From a virus: a stretch of 34,141 bases of DNA. A program made the position numbers and the translations under genes. The stretch is from the UHGV virus genome UHGV-0461192, one strand, 5' to 3'. Shown here piece by piece: positions 2,042-19,825 of this stretch. Below the pieces are notes generated by a model that worked only from the letters and a program-made list of their open reading frames with translations, was not told where the DNA came from and made no database searches. Each line of letters starts with the position of its first letter. Within the stretch, counting starts at the first letter, position 1.

Positions 2042-2224
2042 TTATTTCTGATTAGGCGTAATCAGTTCTTGTGGGGTGAATGCCGATTTCTCCCGAGTGA
2101 CCTTAATGTTTTCTGGCAGGTGTAGCCCAAGTTCGCAGCGGCTCCGTGCTTCAATAATGCCATTGGTACCATCGGCAAGTACCAGGTGAACCGCGTCACC
2201 ACGCTTTAATGTGAGTTTAAGCAT
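2042..2224 (-). CDS. small protein with CsrA/RsmA-like signature (hypothetical)
   Basis: 60-aa ORF; start ATG overlaps the stop of the upstream gene (TAATG), suggesting translational coupling; ungapped alignment to E. coli CsrA gives identities at M1 L2 L4 T5 G9 G33 P37 V42 R44 E45 (from memory of the CsrA sequence). Confidence 0.45.
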   Translation of the reverse strand: MLKLTLKRGDAVHLVLADGTNGIIEARSRCELGLHLPENIKVTREKSAFTPQELITPNQK

Positions 2225-2793
2225 TAGCGTATCCTCAGTGACCGTTCGCCGCGTTCCAGATGTGCGCCTGGTACCGGGTTTAATAACTCGGCTGGTGGTG
2301 TTTCTCCACGCGCCAGTATTTCGGCGGCAACCGCCTCCGCAGATTCAATCACTTCTTTAATGGCTCGCTTGTTTGGTGTAATAACCGTTTCTACATCAAC
2401 AAGTGACACGCCCTCATACTCATCCGGGATCTTATCTTTGCTATCGATAATTACCCGGATAGCCCCCTGTGCATCAGTAAATGTGTTTTTTGCGGTTTTC
2501 AGTTTATCCAGGCCAGCAGCTTGCAGGCAGGTGAGCATATGCTTTCGAATTGCTTTTTCCTTGCCTTCAAAGGACGTCTTACGGGTTGCCAGGCGAGACA
2601 TTTCTTCAGCGCAGGTATTGGCATTGCCCTGTAAATTACGGCAGATGACCATCATGGCGTCCAGTTTGTCTCCCAGTTCTCCTTCCATGCCTTCAAGCGT
2701 GTCGGCGATCATCTCTGGCGTCAGTTCATCGGCGGTTTCTAACAGGTCAATCAGACTGGCATATTCTTTTGCAATAGCGATAGCAGTGCTCAT
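2224..2793 (-). CDS. Gp157-like phage protein
   Basis: 189-aa acidic ORF (MSTAIAIAKEYASLIDLLETADELTPEMIADTLEGMEGEL...) resembling the Siphovirus Gp157 family, which typically sits next to phage recombination genes. Confidence 0.55.
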   Translation of the reverse strand: MSTAIAIAKEYASLIDLLETADELTPEMIADTLEGMEGELGDKLDAMMVICRNLQGNANTCAEEMSRLATRKTSFEGKEKAIRKHMLTCLQAAGLDKLKTAKNTFTDAQGAIRVIIDSKDKIPDEYEGVSLVDVETVITPNKRAIKEVIESAEAVAAEILARGETPPAELLNPVPGAHLERGERSLRIR

Positions 2794-5006
2794 GCTGTTT
2801 GCTCCTGTGCAGCGGTAAGGGCGGCGAGGCGTTCAGTTTTAATGTCGGTGATACGGCGCAGACGTGATCCCAGATACGATGAATATTCTTTATCGCCTTT
2901 GGTTTCCGCTGCTTTCCTGTGTACATCCACTTCGCGGGCGATGAGGCCAAATACCTTGTTTACTTCGTTGGCGGTTACCGCGGCGGCCAGCGTATTGGCA
3001 ACGTTGATAAGCTTCTCATCCAGTTCCTTACGCAGACGGGTAGCATCTTCCGCATTCTCGCTGGCATTCTTGATATCAAACTCAGCTTTATTCCTCTGGC
3101 GGTATTCCGGATTGTCGTACAGGCCCATGAAAATATCGGCGCTGAATCCGAGAGGGGATAGCGCTTTCTTAACAGCATCCGTCCAGGATTTCTTCGGTGC
3201 TTCGCCGTCGCTTGTTGGTCCGTATTTAGTGTCGTAGATATAAGGTGTGCATCCGTAAGCCTCGGACTCACCGCGTACCCCATTCAATATGTACCAGACT
3301 CTCACTTTCATGGTGTGGTGCATTTCACATAGGTACCCGCCAACACCGTCTTGAATCAGATCCCATTCTATTTTTTCACCAACCTGTTTTTTGCGAACTA
3401 TTGGTGCGCCTTTATCAAAGCGCTCCTCCAGCACCTCTACCCCCCAGCCAATACCAAATGGCCCAAATTCGCGAGTCGCTTTCATCGCTATATAAGTGCC
3501 GTTGATGGATGTGCCGCCGCCATTCTGAGAGAAAGCACTGGTGAAGCGCTCATCGGTTTTGAATACGTTCTTCCACAATGCCAGGTTATCCGTGTCATCT
3601 GAGTCCTTTAACTCCGTTTCGATAGCTGAGATTGCATTCTGCCGCTTGTGCTCTTCGGCATGGATCCGCTCAACCAGCGCGTCAACGTTCTGCACCAGAT
3701 CCTTTACCTGCTCGCTAAGTTGTTCTTGTGGAGGAGTCTCTTCTGCCAGGGTAATAGCTGCAGGTTCCCTCTGTGATACGGCGTTATTTTCAGGTACGTC
3801 ATACACATGGCGAGGCGTGACAAACTGCTCACGCAACTGCTGCAAACTACGTTCTCCAGCATTTGCAGCTTCGCTTTTTTCGCCCTGATTTGAGGGTGTT
3901 TCTGACATCATCCCATCAATTGAGAATCGTCCGCCGCCGTGGTTGGTGACTTTTACATCATCCTTGGGTGCTGCTTCCTTTGGCTTCTCTTCAACAGCAT
4001 TTGCATCACGCTGCCCGTTAGCTTGCAGCCAGTTGTCGATGTGACTGCGCAGGGATTGTGGGAAGTGGTACGTGTCTTTTGCGGGGGCGCTCTGAATAAC
4101 ACCGAATACTGATGCGCGGTCATAGGCAAGGATCTGATCCGTTGTGCGCAAGGCCATTGACCAGCGTTTAAAATCTTCCCTGTCCTGACTGATTATTTCG
4201 TCTGCCGCTTTCAGGATGCTGGGGGTGATTTTTTCCGGGGCAACAGGTAACAGGGCGCAGGCAATTTCACGATCCAGAGTGGCGTGAGTCTGTTTGTAAG
4301 GACGTGCGGATGCTGTTTCTGGTTTTACCTCCGGCAGCATTTCATCTCGTTTACCGGGATTCTCTACCCATTTTTTTATAAATTTGGAGATAGTCCAACT
4401 GGTCGGGTTTTGTTCCTGGGTATCGCAACTTGCCAAAATTGCATGTACCAGATTATTCAATCCAGCAATATGCATGTACTCGATGGGCTTACACGCCACC
4501 ATGGCATCAAGAACGATGCGGTTAAACGCGTCAACCTCATCCTCACTGTCAGTATCACTGTTATCGAGCATCTCCAGGTATTCACGCGTCTGCACAAGCA
4601 ATTCACTGTCGACTTCGTTGGCGTCGTGGCTGAACAGCAGAACGGCGGCGAATCGTTCACGAGCCGGCAGTTTCATCAGGTCGCTAACCTGTGAGATATC
4701 TGCTGAACTGCAATCTGAATCAACAGGAGTGTTAACTACCCATTTTTCGCCATCAAAACTGTGTTCTGTGGCAAACGTCTCATCAAACTCACCGACGCCT
4801 GGGCGCGGTTGGCCCGGGGCATCTTCCCAGATTTTAGGTTTGAAATAGTTGTCGCCGTGGTCAGGGTAGGCTTCCCACAATTTGCCGATGATGATGTTCT
4901 CGGCAACTTTTTTGTTAGGGGCGGCGATGGCGATGGCCAGCGCCGGGATCGCGCCGTTTTTGAGCGCGCCTTTTTTCGCTTCTAACAAGCCGTTAAAAAT
5001 GGTCAT
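2790..5006 (-). CDS. large recombination-associated protein with Rad52/Erf-type single-strand annealing signature in its C-terminal third
   Basis: 738-aa ORF; region FGPFGIGWGVEV...YGCTPYIYDTKYG...KKSWTDAVKKALSPLGFSADIFMGLYD resembles the conserved Rad52/Erf motif (K..TDA.K+AL..FG...); N-terminal ~500 aa of unknown function with long acidic stretches. Confidence 0.5.
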   Translation of the reverse strand: MTIFNGLLEAKKGALKNGAIPALAIAIAAPNKKVAENIIIGKLWEAYPDHGDNYFKPKIWEDAPGQPRPGVGEFDETFATEHSFDGEKWVVNTPVDSDCSSADISQVSDLMKLPARERFAAVLLFSHDANEVDSELLVQTREYLEMLDNSDTDSEDEVDAFNRIVLDAMVACKPIEYMHIAGLNNLVHAILASCDTQEQNPTSWTISKFIKKWVENPGKRDEMLPEVKPETASARPYKQTHATLDREIACALLPVAPEKITPSILKAADEIISQDREDFKRWSMALRTTDQILAYDRASVFGVIQSAPAKDTYHFPQSLRSHIDNWLQANGQRDANAVEEKPKEAAPKDDVKVTNHGGGRFSIDGMMSETPSNQGEKSEAANAGERSLQQLREQFVTPRHVYDVPENNAVSQREPAAITLAEETPPQEQLSEQVKDLVQNVDALVERIHAEEHKRQNAISAIETELKDSDDTDNLALWKNVFKTDERFTSAFSQNGGGTSINGTYIAMKATREFGPFGIGWGVEVLEERFDKGAPIVRKKQVGEKIEWDLIQDGVGGYLCEMHHTMKVRVWYILNGVRGESEAYGCTPYIYDTKYGPTSDGEAPKKSWTDAVKKALSPLGFSADIFMGLYDNPEYRQRNKAEFDIKNASENAEDATRLRKELDEKLINVANTLAAAVTANEVNKVFGLIAREVDVHRKAAETKGDKEYSSYLGSRLRRITDIKTERLAALTAAQEQTA

Positions 5007-5036
5007 TGGTCTTTCCTCATTACAGGTCAGTGGTTT

Positions 5037-5357
5037 TTAGTAGGGGAGCTCATCGGTATCTGGCGTGTATTCGATGCAAAGTAACTGCTGGATTTTGTCA
5101 TCGATAGCAGCAATACGCTGTTGGGCGTCGGCGACTGTTTTCTGTTTTTGTTCACGCAGTTGCTCGACCTGTAAACCGATGATGTCGATTGGCTCGGGCT
5201 GGTTAACGGTAATTTCAATTTCGCGGCTTTCCAGAAGGATGTACCTGTCTGGAAAATTTTTTGACATATCAACAGTCGCAACAAGCAGCTTTTCGTGGCT
5301 GAAAGTTGAAGTTGCATAATGAATAAAGAGTGTTACTGGGATGGTGCGCGCTTCCAT
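5037..5357 (-). CDS. hypothetical early protein
   Basis: 106-aa ORF with AGGAG RBS upstream of ATG; first gene of the leftward early operon after the long leader. Confidence 0.5.
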   Translation of the reverse strand: MEARTIPVTLFIHYATSTFSHEKLLVATVDMSKNFPDRYILLESREIEITVNQPEPIDIIGLQVEQLREQKQKTVADAQQRIAAIDDKIQQLLCIEYTPDTDELPY

Positions 5358-6223
5358 AGCGACTCCTTGGTAATGTATACTCAGAGCCGATCAGCGAATA
5401 TTGATCAGCTTCCATAGCGTCAGTGTCGTTGGTCTTTCCTCATCACAAGTTTGGTCACTTGTGATAAATCCGAATGGTTTGGTCGCCGTTCGGGGTAACT
5501 GGCCCGCCTTGTGCGGGTCTTTTGCTATCTAAAGGGTGCCGGTTACGTTTCCGGCGTCGTTATGTTTCCATTACGACCGTACAGGGCTGGTCAGGCCCGG
5601 GCTGGTCTTTCCTGTTTTGAGCTGGTCAGGCTCATGGTCAACGCTGGTCAGGCGTGGTACTTCCTCCGGTCTTTCCCTGGTGTCACGCTGCGGGTTTGGC
5701 CTCTCCTGTTGGGGACTCAGGCACAGCGATAAAACCTGGCTGTGTGAAAAAATGGCCCATCGTGCGGACTGGGCAAAGACTAAACACAGCAAATTGATGA
5801 TGGGCGCCCGGAATCGAACCGGGTAACGGGCAGGGAGTTCCCGTTAAACACCTGTTCACCACAACCGGGAGCGCACTCCGCCATTTCAAAATTTAACGAC
5901 AAAGCTCAAAGTTGAGTCGATGAAGTGCGCTCTCGTGTTGTAGCCAGGACTCTTCCCTGGTGGTCACACCGTATCGCCTTGATGGTGAATCAATCGCTCA
6001 TACCTGGCTGTGGCTTGCACATTCCGGCTACCTGCTATGGAGACAACGCGTTAAGGCTCCGCTTCCATCCAGACCGCTTCGACACATGTGCCATATGCCG
6101 GTGAAGTCTTTCCCTCTGTCACCGTGTTGGCGCCGACGCGCAAAATTTGGTGCCGTCTTTCCGGCTGTCAGAACGTGTTTCTGAACAACTGCCGCTGGGT
6201 AAGCGTTGTTGATGAAAGTGACT

Positions 6224-6246
6224 TTACAATTTGTATTTGTAATGGT
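6224..6246. promoter_or_regulatory. candidate left operator (oL-like) with TTTGTAAT half-site repeats
   Basis: TTTACAATTTGTATTTGTAATGG; shares the TTTGTAAT motif with the repressor-cro intergenic region. Confidence 0.4.
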
Positions 6247-6367
6247 CAATGTGTTTTTAAAAAATAATTTGTAGTGAGGGGCAAAAAAATATTCACTGTG
6301 TAAAGGTGTTTTTGTGTTAGGGGAAAGTTGCATGCCAGCAGCGGCTGGCCTGGAAATTTGAACTGAA

Positions 6368-6796
6368 CTATTTTGTCTGGTTTTTGGCTTCAAGTAGTTC
6401 TTTTAGCAGTAGATCGAAGTGCTCTCTTTTTTCTTTTAGCTCATTGATTAATTTATTTTTTTCGCTCTCAGGCAGTCCTCTGAATAGTTGCAGTAGAGCC
6501 TGTTCTTGCGGGGTTAGTTCTTGATTGTAATTACCCGGGTGTAGTGTGGATTCATCCAAATATTCCCCTTCATTCATGAAGAAAAAATGAACAGGGTATC
6601 CGGTCACTTTTGCTAGCTTGTCTAATTTATCTTTTCTTGGAGTTACCCCATTACACCATGCCTGAACTGATTGAGCCGTAACCCCAATATGGCGAGCTAA
6701 CTCAGATTGAGACCAGCCTAAGTCTTTTAGAATCCGTTGTAGTCGGCTAGCAAAAGCCATGTTTTTCGTTTTTGTGTTCATACCGTAAGGATACAA
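6368..6796 (-). CDS. prophage repressor, XRE-family HTH, no S24 peptidase domain
   Basis: 142-aa ORF with HTH segment LGWSQSELARHIGVTAQSVQAWCNG; divergent from a Cro-like gene; C-terminus lacks Ser-Lys autocleavage motifs. Confidence 0.8.
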   Translation of the reverse strand: MYPYGMNTKTKNMAFASRLQRILKDLGWSQSELARHIGVTAQSVQAWCNGVTPRKDKLDKLAKVTGYPVHFFFMNEGEYLDESTLHPGNYNQELTPQEQALLQLFRGLPESEKNKLINELKEKREHFDLLLKELLEAKNQTK

Positions 6797-11691: not shown

Positions 11692-11933
11692 ATTGACTTA
11701 GAAAAAGTCCGGGGCTATAGTTTCCGCGCAGCCGCAAAATCGGTTGCCGGGATTGGCGTCCCGGATATCTAAGTGACGCATAGCCGCGTTAGCGGTTTTT
11801 TTATGTGTTAGGCACGGCCACATTCGCATTATGGTGGGCTGTGTGGGGGCTTCTGTGGAAGCGCCGGGTTCACTTAGCCGGTTACGCCAACCCTGCACAG
11901 CTCACCACCAGATGATTGGCGTCGCTGGTGGTG

Positions 11934-12752
11934 ATGAAAAAAACACTAAGTGAGGCCACTGCGATGACAGTCCAAATATCTGCGGAATCCCTTTCTCCGC
12001 TACATCATAACCAACTTCCCGTCATCACTACTGAATTGCTTGCCAGTTTGTATGGCACGGAAGTAAATGGTATCCAGCAAAACTTCAAGCGCAACATCGC
12101 CAGATTTGTCGTAGGAAAGCATTTTTTTAAGCTGGAAGGTAATGAATTACGCGACTTCAAAAACAGACTGACAGATAGTCAGTCAGTTGCTAAACATACC
12201 CGATCCCTCATTCTCTGGACAGAACGCGGCGCAGCTCGCCATGCCAAAATGCTGGAAACAGAACAGGCCTGGGAAGTTTTCGAAAAGCTGGAAGATTGTT
12301 ATTTTAGCCAGCGTCCAGAGAGGCGGAGTACAACTACCGATGACCGTACTCCCTTGCGTGATGCCGTTAATATACTGGTCGGCAAGAAAGGCATGATGTA
12401 TCCCGATGCCTACACCATGATTCATCAACGCTTCGCCGTCTCTCACATAGAACAACTGTCACAGACGCAAATGTTAGAGGCGATTGAATACATCCACTGC
12501 CTGCTACTCGATGAAAATCACCCAACCATTCCAGATTTTTCTTTTATCACCACTATCAAAAATGGAAAAGTGACCGGGATGCGCCATGTTGCCAAAGGCG
12601 AACATCTGATGACCTTTGACGCTTTCAAAGAGATCGCTGAGCGGGCAGGGTATCTGGTGATCCACAGCGACAATCTGCGAAGTATGACACTGGATAAATT
12701 GATGGTAATGGGGAAAAAGTCGGCTATATCCGTTGCTAATTCAGCATTTTGA
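11934..12752 (+). CDS. ORF6N-domain protein, putative antirepressor
   Basis: N-terminal LPVITTELLASLYGTEVNGIQQNFKRNIARFVVGKHFFKLEGNEL resembles the ORF6N antirepressor-type domain; ORF opens with TTG at 11916, ATG at 11934 or 11964 more likely. Confidence 0.55.
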   Translation: MKKTLSEATAMTVQISAESLSPLHHNQLPVITTELLASLYGTEVNGIQQNFKRNIARFVVGKHFFKLEGNELRDFKNRLTDSQSVAKHTRSLILWTERGAARHAKMLETEQAWEVFEKLEDCYFSQRPERRSTTTDDRTPLRDAVNILVGKKGMMYPDAYTMIHQRFAVSHIEQLSQTQMLEAIEYIHCLLLDENHPTIPDFSFITTIKNGKVTGMRHVAKGEHLMTFDAFKEIAERAGYLVIHSDNLRSMTLDKLMVMGKKSAISVANSAF

Positions 12753-13850: not shown

Positions 13851-15038
13851 GAATTCCCTTTAGAGTAAGGATTGGTTTTTAAGACGCGGTCTGTAATCAG
13901 TCCCGAGAGCTACAGTAAACAACGCTGAGCACTGAACGCATCACAGGTAAGGTAAAAGGTGATATCGGCAAAGGCTGTGAAACCTTTAATTCAACAGATG
14001 GGAACGGTATGCGCAGGATCCTGTAACGACGCTCCCAAAACCGGAAACCTGTAAGGCATGTTTTCGCTGCTGAACTTAATATACGAACCTGCACTATCAT
14101 GAACATATTTTATATCGTTATACCCCGAGTGATTGTGCCCGGCAATGGATAGTGTCCTGGAGGAACTATTTCTACTGTAAAAGGTAGATATTTAATTTCA
14201 GTTTTGAATTATTCCCTGCTGTTAATAACAATGGCTGTATATGGCACCGAGTAGGCATTTTTTCGCTTACTGAAGGGCAGCTGTGAGCGAGGAACAGACT
14301 TTCCCTACTTCGTTGAGAGTACACCTAGTACAATCAAGGCTAAATGATAAAAATATACAAAATATCATATTTATGATATATATAATGGCATTAATCTTAT
14401 TCTTGGATTACGTTGAAAGGGTAATATTATATTTGTGTAACATAGTTTAGATAACAATGCCGTTATGGGGGGGGGAAAGACATTTCAACATATTAGCTTT
14501 GTATCTAACGCTCATGTAGATCTCGATTTTGAACTTAAAGAACAATTATTTTTTAGAGAGCAAGGTATTTTTGGGGAACAAAAACATAAAGTAATGGAGA
14601 GAGGAGAATGTATCAAAAAATCATCGATTTAATTTAGATTGTCCGTATAGTTGGGGGTAAGTCGAATCGCTGGGCTACATGGAATATTGTGTCAAGTAAA
14701 AATATATTTCAATCTTGCAATAACCGATTGTTGAAAATAATGTCAAATCTTAATGGTGAATGGGGAGAATATAATAAACATGAGTCGATATTATGCAAAT
14801 GGATTTAAATATTTTATACCCGAAGACATAGGGTTTCGAGAGTTCGATGAGACTACTTTGAATGCTTTCGAATTTGCTGGCTAAAACATATAGGTTATAT
14901 CTTACATCTGTTTGTAATGGAGCGTAGATGCGACAAGCTACACCATAATAATCATATTATGATATATTGTTAAGTTGTTATGGCATTAAATAAAATTATG
15001 TCATTTTGTTAACCAAGCAAGAATCAAAGGACTTTTAG

Positions 15039-15737
15039 ATGGGTACGGCATTAATTTCAAGCTTTATTAGTGGTGCAATAGCTATAATCTCTATTGCTAT
15101 ATCTACTTATAATCAGAATAGAATAAACAAGCTCAATGAATCACTGGATGTAAGGAGAAAACATCAGTACTATATTGAACCGTTAATTCGCTCAGCTTCA
15201 GACTTACAAAGCCGTATTTATAATATATTAGAATTGGGGTTCATTGAAGAGTTTTATCATAATGGGAATAAGCGCCAACAAGATTATGTTATCAACAATA
15301 CTGTTTTTCTTTTTTCCCAGTTTTTTGCATGGACAGAAGCTGCCCGCATAGACATTCAATACCTTAGCCTAGAAAAAAATAAAAAAATGAGGGAGTTTAT
15401 TAGATTACAGAACAATATTAACTCATTAATCCAAACAGACGTCTTTGGTCAGTATTTTATGTTTTTCATAGGAGAGCAGAGAGCTATTGCAGAAAAGATG
15501 CTGATATCAACAGATACTGGATTTGATTGCATAGGTTACGGCAGTTTCACAAAGGAAAATTGCTTTATCAATGAGCCATTTTTTTTAGATTTAAACAATG
15601 AAGTGATAAATATGACAAGAGATATCGGAATTTATAAAGAAAGGCTAATCAGAATACAGCACGCGTTAATCGATTTAATTAATTTTCTTGATCCTGGCAT
15701 GATTCGATTTGACGGAAAAAAATATGGAAAAATATAA
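15039..15737 (+). CDS. hypothetical membrane-anchored protein (orphan, low GC)
   Basis: 232-aa ORF in a strongly AT-rich stretch; N-terminal hydrophobic helix (ALISSFISGAIAIISIAI) followed by a soluble domain; no recognisable family. Confidence 0.5.
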   Translation: MGTALISSFISGAIAIISIAISTYNQNRINKLNESLDVRRKHQYYIEPLIRSASDLQSRIYNILELGFIEEFYHNGNKRQQDYVINNTVFLFSQFFAWTEAARIDIQYLSLEKNKKMREFIRLQNNINSLIQTDVFGQYFMFFIGEQRAIAEKMLISTDTGFDCIGYGSFTKENCFINEPFFLDLNNEVINMTRDIGIYKERLIRIQHALIDLINFLDPGMIRFDGKKYGKI

Positions 15738-15921
15738 CCCAGATGATTCGTATCAAGGTAAGTTGCTATATGTATCAATTTAATTATGGTTGGGTGAAAT
15801 TTATGTTAATAGTAGCGGAGGGTTAGTTAAAATATGCTCTCAGTGATTTTTGGATAGTTCTTTTATTTATCATTGAAAGTAAATATGTATAGCTTCAAGA
15901 TTTACAAGTGAATCTGTTTAT

Positions 15922-15955
15922 TGACAGTCCGCTTATGGCACAGAGCGGACTGTCA
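15922..15955. terminator. strong hairpin between convergent genes (putative bidirectional terminator)
   Basis: perfect 11-bp stem TGACAGTCCGC / GCGGACTGTCA with 12-nt loop, A/T-rich flanks. Confidence 0.45.
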
Positions 15956-16199
15956 TATTAAATTTGGCTCCACGCCATAGATGTGTCAGCTCATATCTTA
16001 TCTAATACACACAATAACTTTCTCATTCTTGGAGAATTATTTTTTTAAGGGTAGGTGTTGACGTTAGAGCAAAAGAATGGTGATTTTTTTGATGTGTATT
16101 ACGTTGGAACTGATGGGAATAACTATCTGTTTTCAACGCACTGCTAATTTATCAAGGCCCTTTGATCAGGGCCTTCGAAAGACTGTTGGACCGAGAGAG

Positions 16200-19228: not shown

Positions 19229-19825
19229 ATGGCGCAGCATTCATTTATCAGGGTATCCGGCGGTTCGCTAATACCCGCGACACCAGACACGCAACGCTGG
19301 TTGACTGAACGAGTCAAACCAGGTGCTGTTGTGTATGCAGATTTCAAACAGGCGCGTAATCCCGCGTTTCATCGTAAATTTTTCTCACTTCTCAACCTGG
19401 GCTTTGATTACTGGCATCCGTCCGGAGGGGCTATTTCTCCTGCGGAGCGCGAACTGGTTCACGGCTACGTTAAGTTACTGGCGTATTACGGTGGACACGG
19501 TGATGTCATGGCAGAGCTGGCTGATCAGTATCTTCTCGATGAGTCGGAAAAGCGCGCGGGGAGTATCAGTGCGGTGAAGTCGTTCGAGGCGTTTCGCGCA
19601 TGGGCGATTATGGAAGCTGGGTTTTATGACGTTCATCAGATGCCAGACGGCAGTTTGATGCGCGTACCTCGTTCAATCTCGTTTGCAGCGATGGACGATC
19701 TTGAGTTCGGTCAACTGTATTCAGCCGTTTTAGATGTGCTGTGGAATTATATTTTGTTCCGCACATTTGCCTCTCAGGAGGCCGCTGAAAATGCCGCCGC
19801 GCAGCTGCTGGATTACACATCATGA
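19229..19825 (+). CDS. conserved lambdoid nin-region protein (possibly YbcN/DUF1367-like)
   Basis: 198-aa ORF, 4-nt overlap with the following YbcO-like gene; family name uncertain. Confidence 0.5.
   Translation: MAQHSFIRVSGGSLIPATPDTQRWLTERVKPGAVVYADFKQARNPAFHRKFFSLLNLGFDYWHPSGGAISPAERELVHGYVKLLAYYGGHGDVMAELADQYLLDESEKRAGSISAVKSFEAFRAWAIMEAGFYDVHQMPDGSLMRVPRSISFAAMDDLEFGQLYSAVLDVLWNYILFRTFASQEAAENAAAQLLDYTS

What the first reader, a model, noticed from the sequence alone, without database searches (positions are those of the whole stretch)
2790..5006. Unusually large recombination protein: Rad52/Erf-like annealing domain at the C-terminal end of a 738-aa protein
Phage single-strand annealing proteins are usually 200-350 aa with the annealing domain at the N-terminus. 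Here the Rad52/Erf-like signature sits around residues 520-640, after ~500 aa of unassigned sequence with long acidic stretches, and no separate exonuclease gene is evident nearby. The N-terminal region could be a fused exonuclease, a nuclease inhibitor or another partner domain.
Basis: partly seen in the sequence, partly recalled or inferred. Interest (0 to 1): 0.45.

Follow-up and report, generated by a model that had tools for sequence, protein, structure and literature searches.

The report
Rad52-type annealase fused to RecE-like module
This common E. coli prophage gene encodes a DNA strand-annealing (recombination) protein of the human-RAD52 type joined to the unexplained non-enzymatic front part of the RecE exonuclease; it always sits next to a small Gp157 partner, has no nuclease gene beside it, and is labelled "hypothetical" or wrongly "exonuclease" in databases.

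Summary
The 738-aa ORF (2790..5006, minus strand) is real and is one gene. Residues 470-632 form a Rad52-fold annealase: the model has pLDDT 96.7, and the only significant PDB fold hits are human RAD52. Stand-alone relatives of about 250 aa include F116 gp19 and a P. putida CSV86 protein, both shown elsewhere to drive oligonucleotide recombineering. Residues 1-336 are not a nuclease. They are the non-catalytic N-terminal module of RecE-type proteins. Other phages attach the same module to a PD-(D/E)XK nuclease (RecE), to a DEDD 3'-5' exonuclease, or to this annealase. An acidic, disordered linker with recurring short motifs joins the two halves.

In 76 of 80 related loci a Sipho_Gp157 gene follows immediately; here its start overlaps the fusion's stop. 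No nuclease or RecT lies within 5 kb in any locus.

One new observation: the small upstream gene (106 aa) accompanies the long fusions only. In 33 of 49 cases it ends in an acidic-[ILVM]-P-[FY] tail that resembles the SSB C-terminal tip.

Its "fused exonuclease" idea is not supported. This is a new architectural variant of a known recombinase kind. Moderate interest.

The parts
2790..5006 (-). 738-aa fusion gene: RecE-type N-terminal module + linker + Rad52-type annealase + helical tail
   Evidence: ORF and translation. Full-length homologues exist in about 58 genome loci and one phage. phrog_2489 matches over the full length.
4728..5006 (-). Head domain, aa 1-93: small alpha/beta domain. Homologues carry the precomputed tag PF27430, a family absent from the local Pfam copy.
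   Evidence: Full-length model has pLDDT about 85-94 here. Conserved in A2. Shared with the phage Evi DEDD-exonuclease fusion, aligned from residue 14. PF27430 tag on homologues; family not in the local library.
4332..4688 (-). Helical domain 1, aa 107-225, containing the only dense acidic patch (aa 138-167)
   Evidence: Secondary structure and pLDDT; charge analysis. About 45% identical to P0122, which has a PF06630 head, from residue 142 onward.
3999..4310 (-). RecE-like helical block, aa 233-336
   Evidence: NCBIfam exodeoxyribonuclease VIII NF007259 matches aa 233-336 to profile positions 262-370 of 877, E 1.9e-12. phrog_607 and phrog_2082. BLASTP to mEp237 RecE 275-346 gives 42% identity.
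3714..3998 (-). Acidic disordered linker, aa 337-431, with short motif GGGRFSID (aa 357-364 = 3915..3938) and SNQGE (aa 372)
   Evidence: pLDDT < 50 over aa 340-430. Hypervariable in A2 but with recurring motifs. Motif census: G.G[RK]F[SGA][ILV][DE] occurs just after the block in about half of the long fusions, and other motifs are shared with the Evi DEDD fusion.
3600..3713 (-). Connecting helix, aa 432-469. A recombination junction seen in the mosaic allele P0272 lies at about aa 448.
   Evidence: Helix 432-465. P0272 is about 97% identical up to aa 448, then about 45% identical.
3111..3599 (-). Rad52-fold annealase core, aa 470-632
   Evidence: AF2 pLDDT 96.7. Foldseek against PDB: the only significant hits are human RAD52 1h2i and 8bjm, prob 1.0. 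BFVD hits are viral Rad52-like SSAPs. 40 of 87 family members hit PF04098. The profile aligns with RAD52 residues 49-159.
2793..3110 (-). Three-helix C-terminal tail, aa 633-738; candidate partner- or SSB-binding region
   Evidence: Helices 633-674, 679-703 and 706-737 at high pLDDT. Several invariant residues (R659, E661, D663, E681, R691, R715) in A2. The function is inferred by analogy with the Red-beta C-terminal domain (PMC13490951).
2224..2793 (-). Gp157-family partner gene (189 aa), translationally coupled through an ATGA overlap
   Evidence: PF05565 E 9e-29. Immediately downstream of the annealase in 76 of 80 loci. Overlap read. All 23 sampled partners are PF05565, and none hits Mu Gam.
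5037..5357 (-). Upstream 106-aa gene (phrog_2479) ending in DTDELPY, an SSB C-terminal-tip-like tail
   Evidence: HMM census: present upstream in 49 long-fusion loci and in no stand-alone locus. 33 of 49 end in acidic-[ILVM]P[FY]-COOH, against 4 of 6801 other ORFs. SSB-Ct patterns such as DDEIPF are given in PMC13490951.
2042..2224 (-). 60-aa gene (phrog_2482), coupled to Gp157 through a TAATG overlap; function unknown
   Evidence: A homologue lies downstream of Gp157 in many long-fusion loci.

Best explanation
The gene encodes one polypeptide with two halves. The C-terminal third (aa 470-738) is a Rad52/Sak-type single-strand annealing protein. Like its relatives, it most likely forms a ring, binds ssDNA in a basic groove (K613/K614 align with RAD52 K152/R153) and anneals complementary strands. 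The N-terminal half (aa 1-336) is the non-catalytic module found at the front of RecE-type proteins. An acidic, disordered linker of about 100 residues carrying short peptide motifs tethers the two halves.

Shown here:
- the fold of the annealase domain
- homology to stand-alone annealases that have published recombineering activity
- homology of the N-module to RecE and to DEDD-exonuclease fusions
- the obligatory Gp157 neighbour
- the absence of a phage nuclease

Inferred:
- The protein is the prophage's recombinase.
- Gp157 is its accessory factor, occupying the position that Gam, DUF1351 or DUF2483 take next to other Rad52-superfamily annealases.
- The N-module and linker act as an adaptor. 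They place the enzyme at DNA ends or on a host or phage partner, as they would for the nuclease in RecE.
- ssDNA substrate comes from host nucleases or from replication forks.
For: - Fold: C-terminal model pLDDT 96.7, pTM 0.81. The only PDB hits at E<=1e-3 are human RAD52. BFVD hits are viral 'Rad52/59/22' and 'RAD52-like recombinase' proteins.
- Sequence: 40 of 87 family members hit PF04098, best E 3e-6, and the next family has 5. The profile aligns both Rad52 motifs to RAD52 residues 49-159.
- Family shape: 2656 representative clusters. Most are stand-alone proteins of 240-290 aa with the domain at the N-terminus.
- Function in relatives: the F116-type 251-aa protein is 42% identical. F116 gp19 (Rec6) and the P. 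putida CSV86 243-aa protein (Rec5; strain and length match L066) gave about 1e-4 oligonucleotide recombineering (PMC5743808).
- N-module: the RecE equivalog matches aa 233-336. mEp237 RecE residues 1-476 are about 43% identical to P0122 residues 1-475, and P0122 residues 166-812 are about 45% identical to window residues 142-736.
- Alternative cargoes: PF12684 nuclease plus RecT in mEp237, and PF16473 DEDD in Evi and Chris1.
- No conserved catalytic residues in the N-terminal half.
- Context: early-left operon between cI and int. Gp157 is adjacent in 76 of 80 loci, and there is no nuclease or RecT within 5 kb. ATGA coupling.
- Positional analogy of Gp157, Gam and DUF1351 next to Erf (PMC8093625).
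Against: - No biochemical or genetic data exist for this protein or for any long fusion.
- The window's own score against Pfam Rad52_Rad22 (13.6 bits) is below the curated cut-off of 20.3, so family membership rests on fold and on relatives.
- Ring formation, DNA binding and annealing were not tested.
- The function of the RecE N-terminal region is unknown even in RecE, so the 'adaptor' role is inference only.
- The N-terminal domains have no structural relative in PDB or BFVD.
- Gp157 has no known mechanism, and the PHROGs label 'Mu Gam-like' found no support at sequence level.
- The full-length model rests on only 27 sequences, and inter-domain geometry is unreliable (pTM 0.36).
Confidence: 0.8

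Rival explanations
1. The N-terminal about 470 residues are a fused exonuclease of a new type, so the protein is a single-chain exonuclease plus annealase.
For: PHROGs labels phrog_2489, phrog_7838, phrog_607 and phrog_2082 as 'exonuclease'. RefSeq sometimes names the gene 'exonuclease family protein'. No separate nuclease gene lies in the module.
Against: - The labels are inherited from RecE-type relatives, whose nuclease is a different C-terminal domain that is absent here.
- phrog_7838 'exonuclease' actually covers the Rad52-fold domain, aa 472-722.
- No nuclease family or fold matches aa 1-469.
- Only one invariant residue, an alanine, occurs in the N-terminal half of 27 homologues.
- The RecE nuclease domain alone substitutes for the full-length protein, which implies that the N-region is not the nuclease (PMC11611040).
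Confidence: 0.04
2. The long ORF is an artefact: two genes (an N-terminal protein and a normal 270-aa annealase) merged by a sequencing frameshift or a recent accidental fusion without function.
For: Stand-alone annealases of this family are the rule. The junction region is disordered and hypervariable.
Against: - The same open frame occurs in 449 complete E. coli genomes and in a cluster of 817 sequences.
- About 58 intact long ORFs in Escherichia, Raoultella, Serratia, Yersinia, Providencia, Proteus, Xenorhabdus, Photorhabdus, Pantoea and others, with identities down to about 30%, keep both halves in one frame.
- Within the open 2217-nt frame, no internal start with its own ribosome site was looked for.
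Confidence: 0.01
3. The protein is not primarily a recombinase. The Rad52-fold domain serves another ssDNA transaction, such as replication restart or protection of phage ssDNA. Alternatively, the acidic N-module and linker act as a decoy or inhibitor of host nucleases or defence sensors, with annealing secondary.
For: - The N-terminal half is strongly acidic (net -29).
- The neighbour p106 carries an SSB-tip-like tail that could titrate host SSB-binding proteins.
- SSAPs are recognised by bacterial Avs sensors (PMC13581612), which gives phages a motive to modify them.
- The prophage also carries NinB/Orf.
Against: - Close stand-alone relatives work as recombinases in recombineering assays.
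- The DNA-binding lysines and both Rad52 motifs are invariant across the family.
- The gene sits in the canonical recombination slot of a lambdoid early-left operon.
- The same N-module carries bona fide recombination nucleases elsewhere.
Confidence: 0.1

Closest known systems
Sak/Rad52-family phage annealases: Pseudomonas phage F116 gp19 ('Rec6'), P. putida CSV86 'Rec5', lactococcal phage ul36 Sak
   Same: - Same annealase domain: 42% identity to the F116-type protein over 200 aa.
- Same Rad52 fold and motifs.
- A partner gene follows immediately: Gp157 in the Pseudomonas prophages, a DUF1351-like protein in F116-type phages.
   Different: Those are stand-alone proteins of 240-290 aa with the domain at the N-terminus. 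Here about 470 residues of RecE-type module and linker precede it. The identity of ul36 Sak with this subfamily was not tested here (own knowledge).
Human RAD52 N-terminal domain (PDB 1h2i, 1kn0, 8bjm)
   Same: Best and only significant structural match: prob 1.0, TM 0.46-0.58 on the target. The FG..GW hairpin motif and the KK..TD..KKAL..G helix align.
   Different: 17-19% identity. RAD52 R156 corresponds to an invariant Ser here. The C-terminal part is a three-helix tail instead of the RAD52 RPA/RAD51-binding region. The oligomeric state is unknown.
RecE (exodeoxyribonuclease VIII) of Rac-type prophages, e.g. phage mEp237 gp31 with RecT
   Same: - Shares the helical block: aa 233-336 against RecE about 262-370.
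- Through the bridging protein P0122, shares the whole N-terminal architecture plus an acidic linker.
- Same genomic slot in the early-left operon.
   Different: RecE ends in a PD-(D/E)XK nuclease (PF12684) and has a separate RecT annealase. The window protein ends in the annealase itself, has a different head (PF27430-type instead of PF06630) and has no nuclease.
CP-933P-type 'exodeoxyribonuclease' of phages Evi and Chris1 (N-module + DEDD 3'-5' exonuclease)
   Same: Evi shares the window's own head and middle domains, aa 14-331, at 25% identity, and some linker motifs (GPFY, DPNDPKW).
   Different: The C-terminal cargo is an Rv2179c-like DEDD exonuclease, PF16473. No Gp157 or p106 neighbour was seen in the three RecE/DEDD loci examined.
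Erf-SSB modules of Firmicutes phages with Gam / DUF2483 / DUF1351 / Sipho_Gp157 neighbours (Steczkiewicz et al. 2021, PMC8093625)
   Same: A Rad52-superfamily annealase paired with a small Gp157-family gene.
   Different: There Gp157 lies upstream of erf-ssb. Here it lies downstream and is translationally coupled, there is no SSB gene in the module, and the annealase is of Rad52/Sak type rather than Erf type.

Membership tests
Rad52/Sak annealases (Rad52 SSAP superfamily; Pfam PF04098 Rad52_Rad22) | Rad52 N-terminal-domain fold (beta-hairpin, three-stranded sheet, long helix) | tested here: met
   AF2 model pLDDT 96.7. Foldseek top and only significant PDB hits are RAD52 1h2i and 8bjm, E about 1e-6, prob 1.0. 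BFVD hits are viral Rad52-like proteins.
Rad52/Sak annealases (Rad52 SSAP superfamily; Pfam PF04098 Rad52_Rad22) | Score above Pfam's curated gathering threshold | tested here: not met
   The window domain scores 13.6 bits against a cut-off of 20.3, E 0.063. 40 of 87 relatives hit at E<=1, best 3e-6. It is therefore filed at superfamily (fold) level, not as a curated PF04098 member.
Rad52/Sak annealases (Rad52 SSAP superfamily; Pfam PF04098 Rad52_Rad22) | Conserved basic residues of the inner ssDNA-binding groove (RAD52 K152/R153) | tested here: met
   The HMM alignment places window K613/K614 opposite RAD52 K152/R153. K614 is invariant and K613 nearly invariant in 27 long homologues. The role of K152/R153 is from established knowledge.
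Rad52/Sak annealases (Rad52 SSAP superfamily; Pfam PF04098 Rad52_Rad22) | Oligomeric ring; ATP-independent annealing of complementary ssDNA | not testable with these tools
   Needs protein work. Indirect evidence only: the stand-alone relatives Rec5 and Rec6 support oligonucleotide recombineering (PMC5743808).
RecE / exodeoxyribonuclease VIII (NCBIfam NF007259) | C-terminal PD-(D/E)XK 5'-3' nuclease domain | tested here: not met
   No PF12684 or other nuclease hit. mEp237 RecE has it at residues 792-944. In the window that position is occupied by the Rad52 fold.
RecE / exodeoxyribonuclease VIII (NCBIfam NF007259) | Equivalog score over the full length; PF06630 N-terminal head | tested here: not met
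   46 bits against a cut-off of 1269, and only aa 233-336 match. There is no PF06630 hit in the window protein, whereas P0122 and P0123 have it.
RecE-type N-terminal module (shared by RecE, DEDD fusions and annealase fusions) | Homologous helical block plus a head domain, followed by an acidic disordered linker and a C-terminal DNA-processing domain | tested here: met
   Two head types (PF27430-tagged, PF06630) are combined with three cargo types.
Erf (PF04404) and RecT/Red-beta (PF03837) annealases | Match to the family profile | tested here: not met
   A Pfam scan of the C-terminal domain at E<=10 lists only Rad52_Rad22. Erf-named proteins appear only as weak BFVD fold hits, E 0.01 or worse.
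Mu Gam-like end-protection proteins (for the Gp157 partner, as PHROGs labels phrog_253) | Sequence similarity to Phage_Mu_Gam or to a solved Ku/Gam structure | tested here: inconclusive
   All 23 partners hit PF05565 and none hits Mu Gam at E<=1. No PDB relative by profile.

The most novel reading that the evidence does not exclude
The module is a three-protein recombination system without its own nuclease, and it borrows host enzymes. The RecE-type N-terminal region and its linker peptides would be a portable docking adaptor. Evolution attaches it to a 5'-3' nuclease, a 3'-5' nuclease or an annealase. The upstream 106-aa protein, with its SSB-tip-like ...D-E-[IL]-P-[FY] C-terminus, would plug into SSB-tail-binding pockets. 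Those pockets could be on host SSB-interacting proteins (from established knowledge these include the nucleases RecJ and ExoI) or on the annealase fusion itself. That would supply the missing resection step or load the annealase. If so, the decades-old question of what the RecE N-terminus does becomes testable through natural domain swaps.
Probability: 0.2. Interest if true: 0.72.

Novelty: new variant of a known kind. Interest (0 to 1): 0.55.

Why it matters
- Annotation: about 8% of complete E. coli genomes, and many Salmonella, Serratia, Yersinia, Providencia and Photorhabdus/Xenorhabdus prophages, carry this gene under the names 'hypothetical' or 'exonuclease'. Surveys of phage recombinases would therefore count these prophages as lacking an annealase.
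- RecE biology: the RecE N-terminal region has no known function, although full-length RecE boosts linear-linear recombination used for direct cloning. Finding the same module naturally attached to three different DNA-processing domains shows that it is an autonomous, portable unit. It also offers natural swap constructs for testing what it does.
- Partners: the strict Gp157 pairing and the SSB-tail-like neighbour point to accessory factors of Rad52-type annealases that nobody has characterised.
- Tools: a native E. coli Rad52-type annealase with accessory proteins is a candidate recombineering tool.

Tried and rejected
- Megablast of the gene against 50,697 phage records found nothing. The phage homologues are too divergent at DNA level, and tblastn was needed.
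- Whole-protein Pfam, NCBIfam and PDB sequence searches gave no annealase hit. Only the isolated domain, the family-wide scan and the fold comparison did.
- P0272 (622 aa, 'exonuclease family protein', 97% identical in the N-half) looked like a natural swap to another fold. It is instead a truncated mosaic with a divergent allele of the same Rad52-type domain.
- PF27430, the tag on the homologues, could not be identified. It is absent from the local Pfam copy and from the literature library.
- The N-terminal domains were searched by fold, as part of the full-length model, against PDB and BFVD without any significant hit.
- The 'Mu Gam-like' label for Gp157 has no support from Pfam member scans or a PDB profile search.
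- The window's own genome is not held, so a host- or other-prophage-encoded nuclease partner could not be sought.
- A literature search on 'full-length RecE' was swamped by 'receptor'.
- No correlation was seen, by eye, between presence of the p106 tail and presence of linker motif A.
Full report
**Observation.**
- The window carries a lambdoid prophage integrated beside a tRNA Gly-Cys-Leu cluster.
- On the minus strand the order is: cI-like repressor (6368..6796), an ORF-free leader of about 1 kb, a 106-aa gene (5037..5357), the 738-aa ORF (2790..5006), a Gp157-family gene (2224..2793), a 60-aa gene, an excisionase-like gene and the integrase.
- The 738-aa ORF has a good ribosome site. Its stop overlaps the Gp157 start as ATGA, and the Gp157 stop overlaps the next start as TAATG.
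- The ORF is not a frameshift artefact. The identical protein stands for 817 sequences. The three-gene module is in 449 of 5426 complete E. coli genomes. About 58 intact long homologues occur across the Enterobacterales and in Stenotrophomonas phage BUCT708.

**The C-terminal third is a Rad52-type annealase.**
- Whole-protein searches were silent.
- The isolated domain (aa 470-738) gives a sub-threshold Pfam Rad52_Rad22 hit, E 0.063, and so does its stand-alone F116-type relative.
- An exhaustive search found 2656 representative clusters. Most are stand-alone proteins of 240-290 aa with the domain at their N-terminus, and about 35 are long.
- Of 87 aligned members, 40 hit Rad52_Rad22 individually (best 3e-6), while no other family has more than 5.
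- The family profile aligns to human RAD52 residues 49-159 across both hallmark motifs. Window K613/K614 fall opposite RAD52 K152/R153.
- The AlphaFold2 model is very confident: pLDDT 96.7, pTM 0.81.
- Its only significant PDB matches are human RAD52 structures, prob 1.0. In BFVD all 16 significant hits are viral proteins of 170-290 aa, named Rad52/59/22 or RAD52-like recombinase where named.
- Functional anchor: Ricaurte et al. showed that F116 gp19 (Rec6, 251 aa) and a P. putida CSV86 protein (Rec5, 243 aa), both classed as Sak, support oligonucleotide recombineering at about 1e-4 (PMC5743808).
- The F116-type protein is 42% identical to the window domain. My CSV86 locus holds a homologue of matching length.

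**The N-terminal half is the RecE-type non-catalytic module, not a nuclease.**
- The full-length model (pLDDT 77.8) resolves these parts:
  - an alpha/beta head, aa 1-93
  - a helical domain, aa 107-225
  - a second helical domain, aa 240-335
  - a disordered stretch, aa 340-430
  - a helix, aa 432-465
  - the Rad52 domain with a three-helix tail
- Residues 233-336 match the NCBIfam exodeoxyribonuclease VIII equivalog at positions 262-370 of 877 and the RecE PHROGs.
- Pairwise comparisons give a mosaic network:
  - mEp237 RecE residues 1-476 are 43% identical to P0122 residues 1-475.
  - P0122 residues 166-812 are 45% identical to window residues 142-736.
  - The phage Evi protein shares the window's head and middle domains.
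- Domain scans complete the picture:
  - mEp237 RecE is a PF06630 head plus a PD-(D/E)XK nuclease, with RecT next door.
  - Evi and Chris1 end in a DEDD exonuclease, PF16473.
  - P0122 and P0123 carry the PF06630 head with the annealase.
  - The window carries a PF27430-tagged head with the annealase.
- So two head types combine with three cargo types.
- The N-half has a single invariant residue, an alanine, among 27 homologues. It has no nuclease family or fold match.
[quoted passage not shown] It is dispensable for nuclease function, but it enhances linear-linear recombination (PMC11611040).
- The database label 'exonuclease' is therefore inherited, not earned. phrog_7838 'exonuclease' even covers the Rad52 domain itself.

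**Linker.**
- It is 79-214 residues long, 15-23% Asp+Glu, and hypervariable.
- It carries recurring short motifs. G.G[RK]F[SGA][ILV][DE] (GGGRFSID at aa 357 here) occurs just after the RecE-like block in about half of the long fusions, across many genera. GPFY and DP.D.KW are shared with the Evi DEDD fusion.
- This pattern suggests docking peptides. That is inference.
- A natural mosaic, P0272, switches from about 97% to about 45% identity at about aa 448. That marks the linker/annealase border as a recombination joint.

**Context.**
- In 80 related loci a Gp157 homologue follows the annealase gene immediately in 76. The four exceptions are contig ends. This holds both for the 58 long fusions and for the 19 stand-alone, mostly Pseudomonas, versions.
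- No RecE nuclease, DEDD exonuclease or RecT lies within 5 kb in any of them.
- In the window, the other early genes checked include NinB/Orf but no exonuclease.
- All 23 sampled partners are Sipho_Gp157, and none resembles Mu Gam by sequence.
- Steczkiewicz et al. noted that Gam, DUF2483, DUF1351 and Gp157 occupy the same position next to Erf in Firmicutes phages, and they inferred analogous functions (PMC8093625). In F116-type phages the gene after the annealase is DUF1351-like.

**New side observation: the upstream 106-aa protein.**
- It accompanies the long fusions in 49 loci, counting the window and phage BUCT708, and is absent from all stand-alone loci.
- 33 of the 49 end in acidic-[ILVM]-P-[FY]-COOH (DTDELPY, ESDIPF, DDSDIPF, DEEIPY and similar). 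Only 4 of 6801 other ORFs in the same loci end that way.
- SSB C-terminal tips read ...DDEIPF. The last seven residues are the functional interface, and annealase C-termini bind them (PMC13490951).
- The tail is therefore a plausible SSB-tip mimic. Its target is unknown.
- Earlier notes on this stretch do not mention it.

**Mechanism proposed.**
- Shown: a Rad52-fold annealase tethered to a RecE-type module, obligatorily paired with Gp157, with no phage nuclease.
- Inferred: the annealase oligomerises and anneals ssDNA. Gp157 is its accessory. The N-module and linker position the enzyme on DNA ends or on a partner. Host nucleases or replication supply ssDNA, possibly recruited through the p106 tail.

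**Novelty.**
- The annealase kind is known, and so is the Gp157 pairing with Rad52-superfamily annealases.
- The fusion to the RecE N-module, the two-heads-by-three-cargoes network and the SSB-tail-like neighbour were not found in the literature searched.
- Earlier agents of this scan reached the same core reading on identical genes. I re-derived it independently here.

Noticed in passing
window 5037..5357 (-): The 106-aa protein upstream of the fusion ends in DTDELPY. Its homologues end in acidic-[ILVM]P[FY]-COOH in 33 of 49 loci, against 4 of 6801 background ORFs. This resembles the SSB C-terminal tip. The protein is found only with the long fusions.
   Followed up: partly
window 4486..4517 (PAM 4483..4485); L087:702-733: A 32-nt spacer in the type I-E CRISPR array of E. 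coli NCTC9112 is 100% identical to the fusion gene. In canonical repeat orientation the protospacer is preceded by ATG, an interference-proficient I-E PAM (own knowledge). This prophage family has therefore been a CRISPR target.
   Followed up: partly
window 5358..6367 (-): An ORF-free leader of about 1 kb lies between the cI-like repressor and the first early-left gene. It has repeated GGAAAGACC motifs. The cassette GATGAGGAAAGACCAA occurs at about 5429-5444 without a start codon and again at 5004-5020 as the fusion's ribosome site. Rfam finds nothing there at gathering threshold. Earlier notes propose structured and antisense RNAs.
   Followed up: no
window 11715..12752 (+): Rfam finds isrK, C4 antisense RNA and c4-a1b1 target elements directly upstream of an anti-repressor gene (11916..12752). 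This is a P1/P7-like RNA-controlled antirepressor module inside a lambdoid prophage.
   Followed up: no
P0272 (E. albertii and others, 327 member sequences): This 622-aa 'exonuclease family protein' is identical in N-module and linker to the window protein up to about aa 448. It then carries a divergent allele of the annealase, truncated inside the KK..TD..KAL motif. It is probably a broken mosaic copy.
   Followed up: partly
window 14001..16000: A low-GC island (GC 0.33-0.35, against about 0.5 around it) holds genes of unknown function (phrog_5606 and others). It is probably a moron or cargo insertion.
   Followed up: no
H31, E. coli strain S14 (NZ_CP107114.1 314171-318557): An IS3-like ISEc52 transposase interrupts the otherwise 100% identical three-gene module in this strain.
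   Followed up: no
L057:4786-6017 (Pluralibacter MAG): This is a decayed copy. A linker fragment with GPFY...GRANK sits in a different frame from a 284-aa annealase ORF, and replication genes lie where the N-module should be.
   Followed up: no
window 19229..19825 (+): A NinB/Orf recombination mediator is encoded in the nin region of the same prophage, so the phage carries two recombination functions but no recognisable exonuclease.
   Followed up: no
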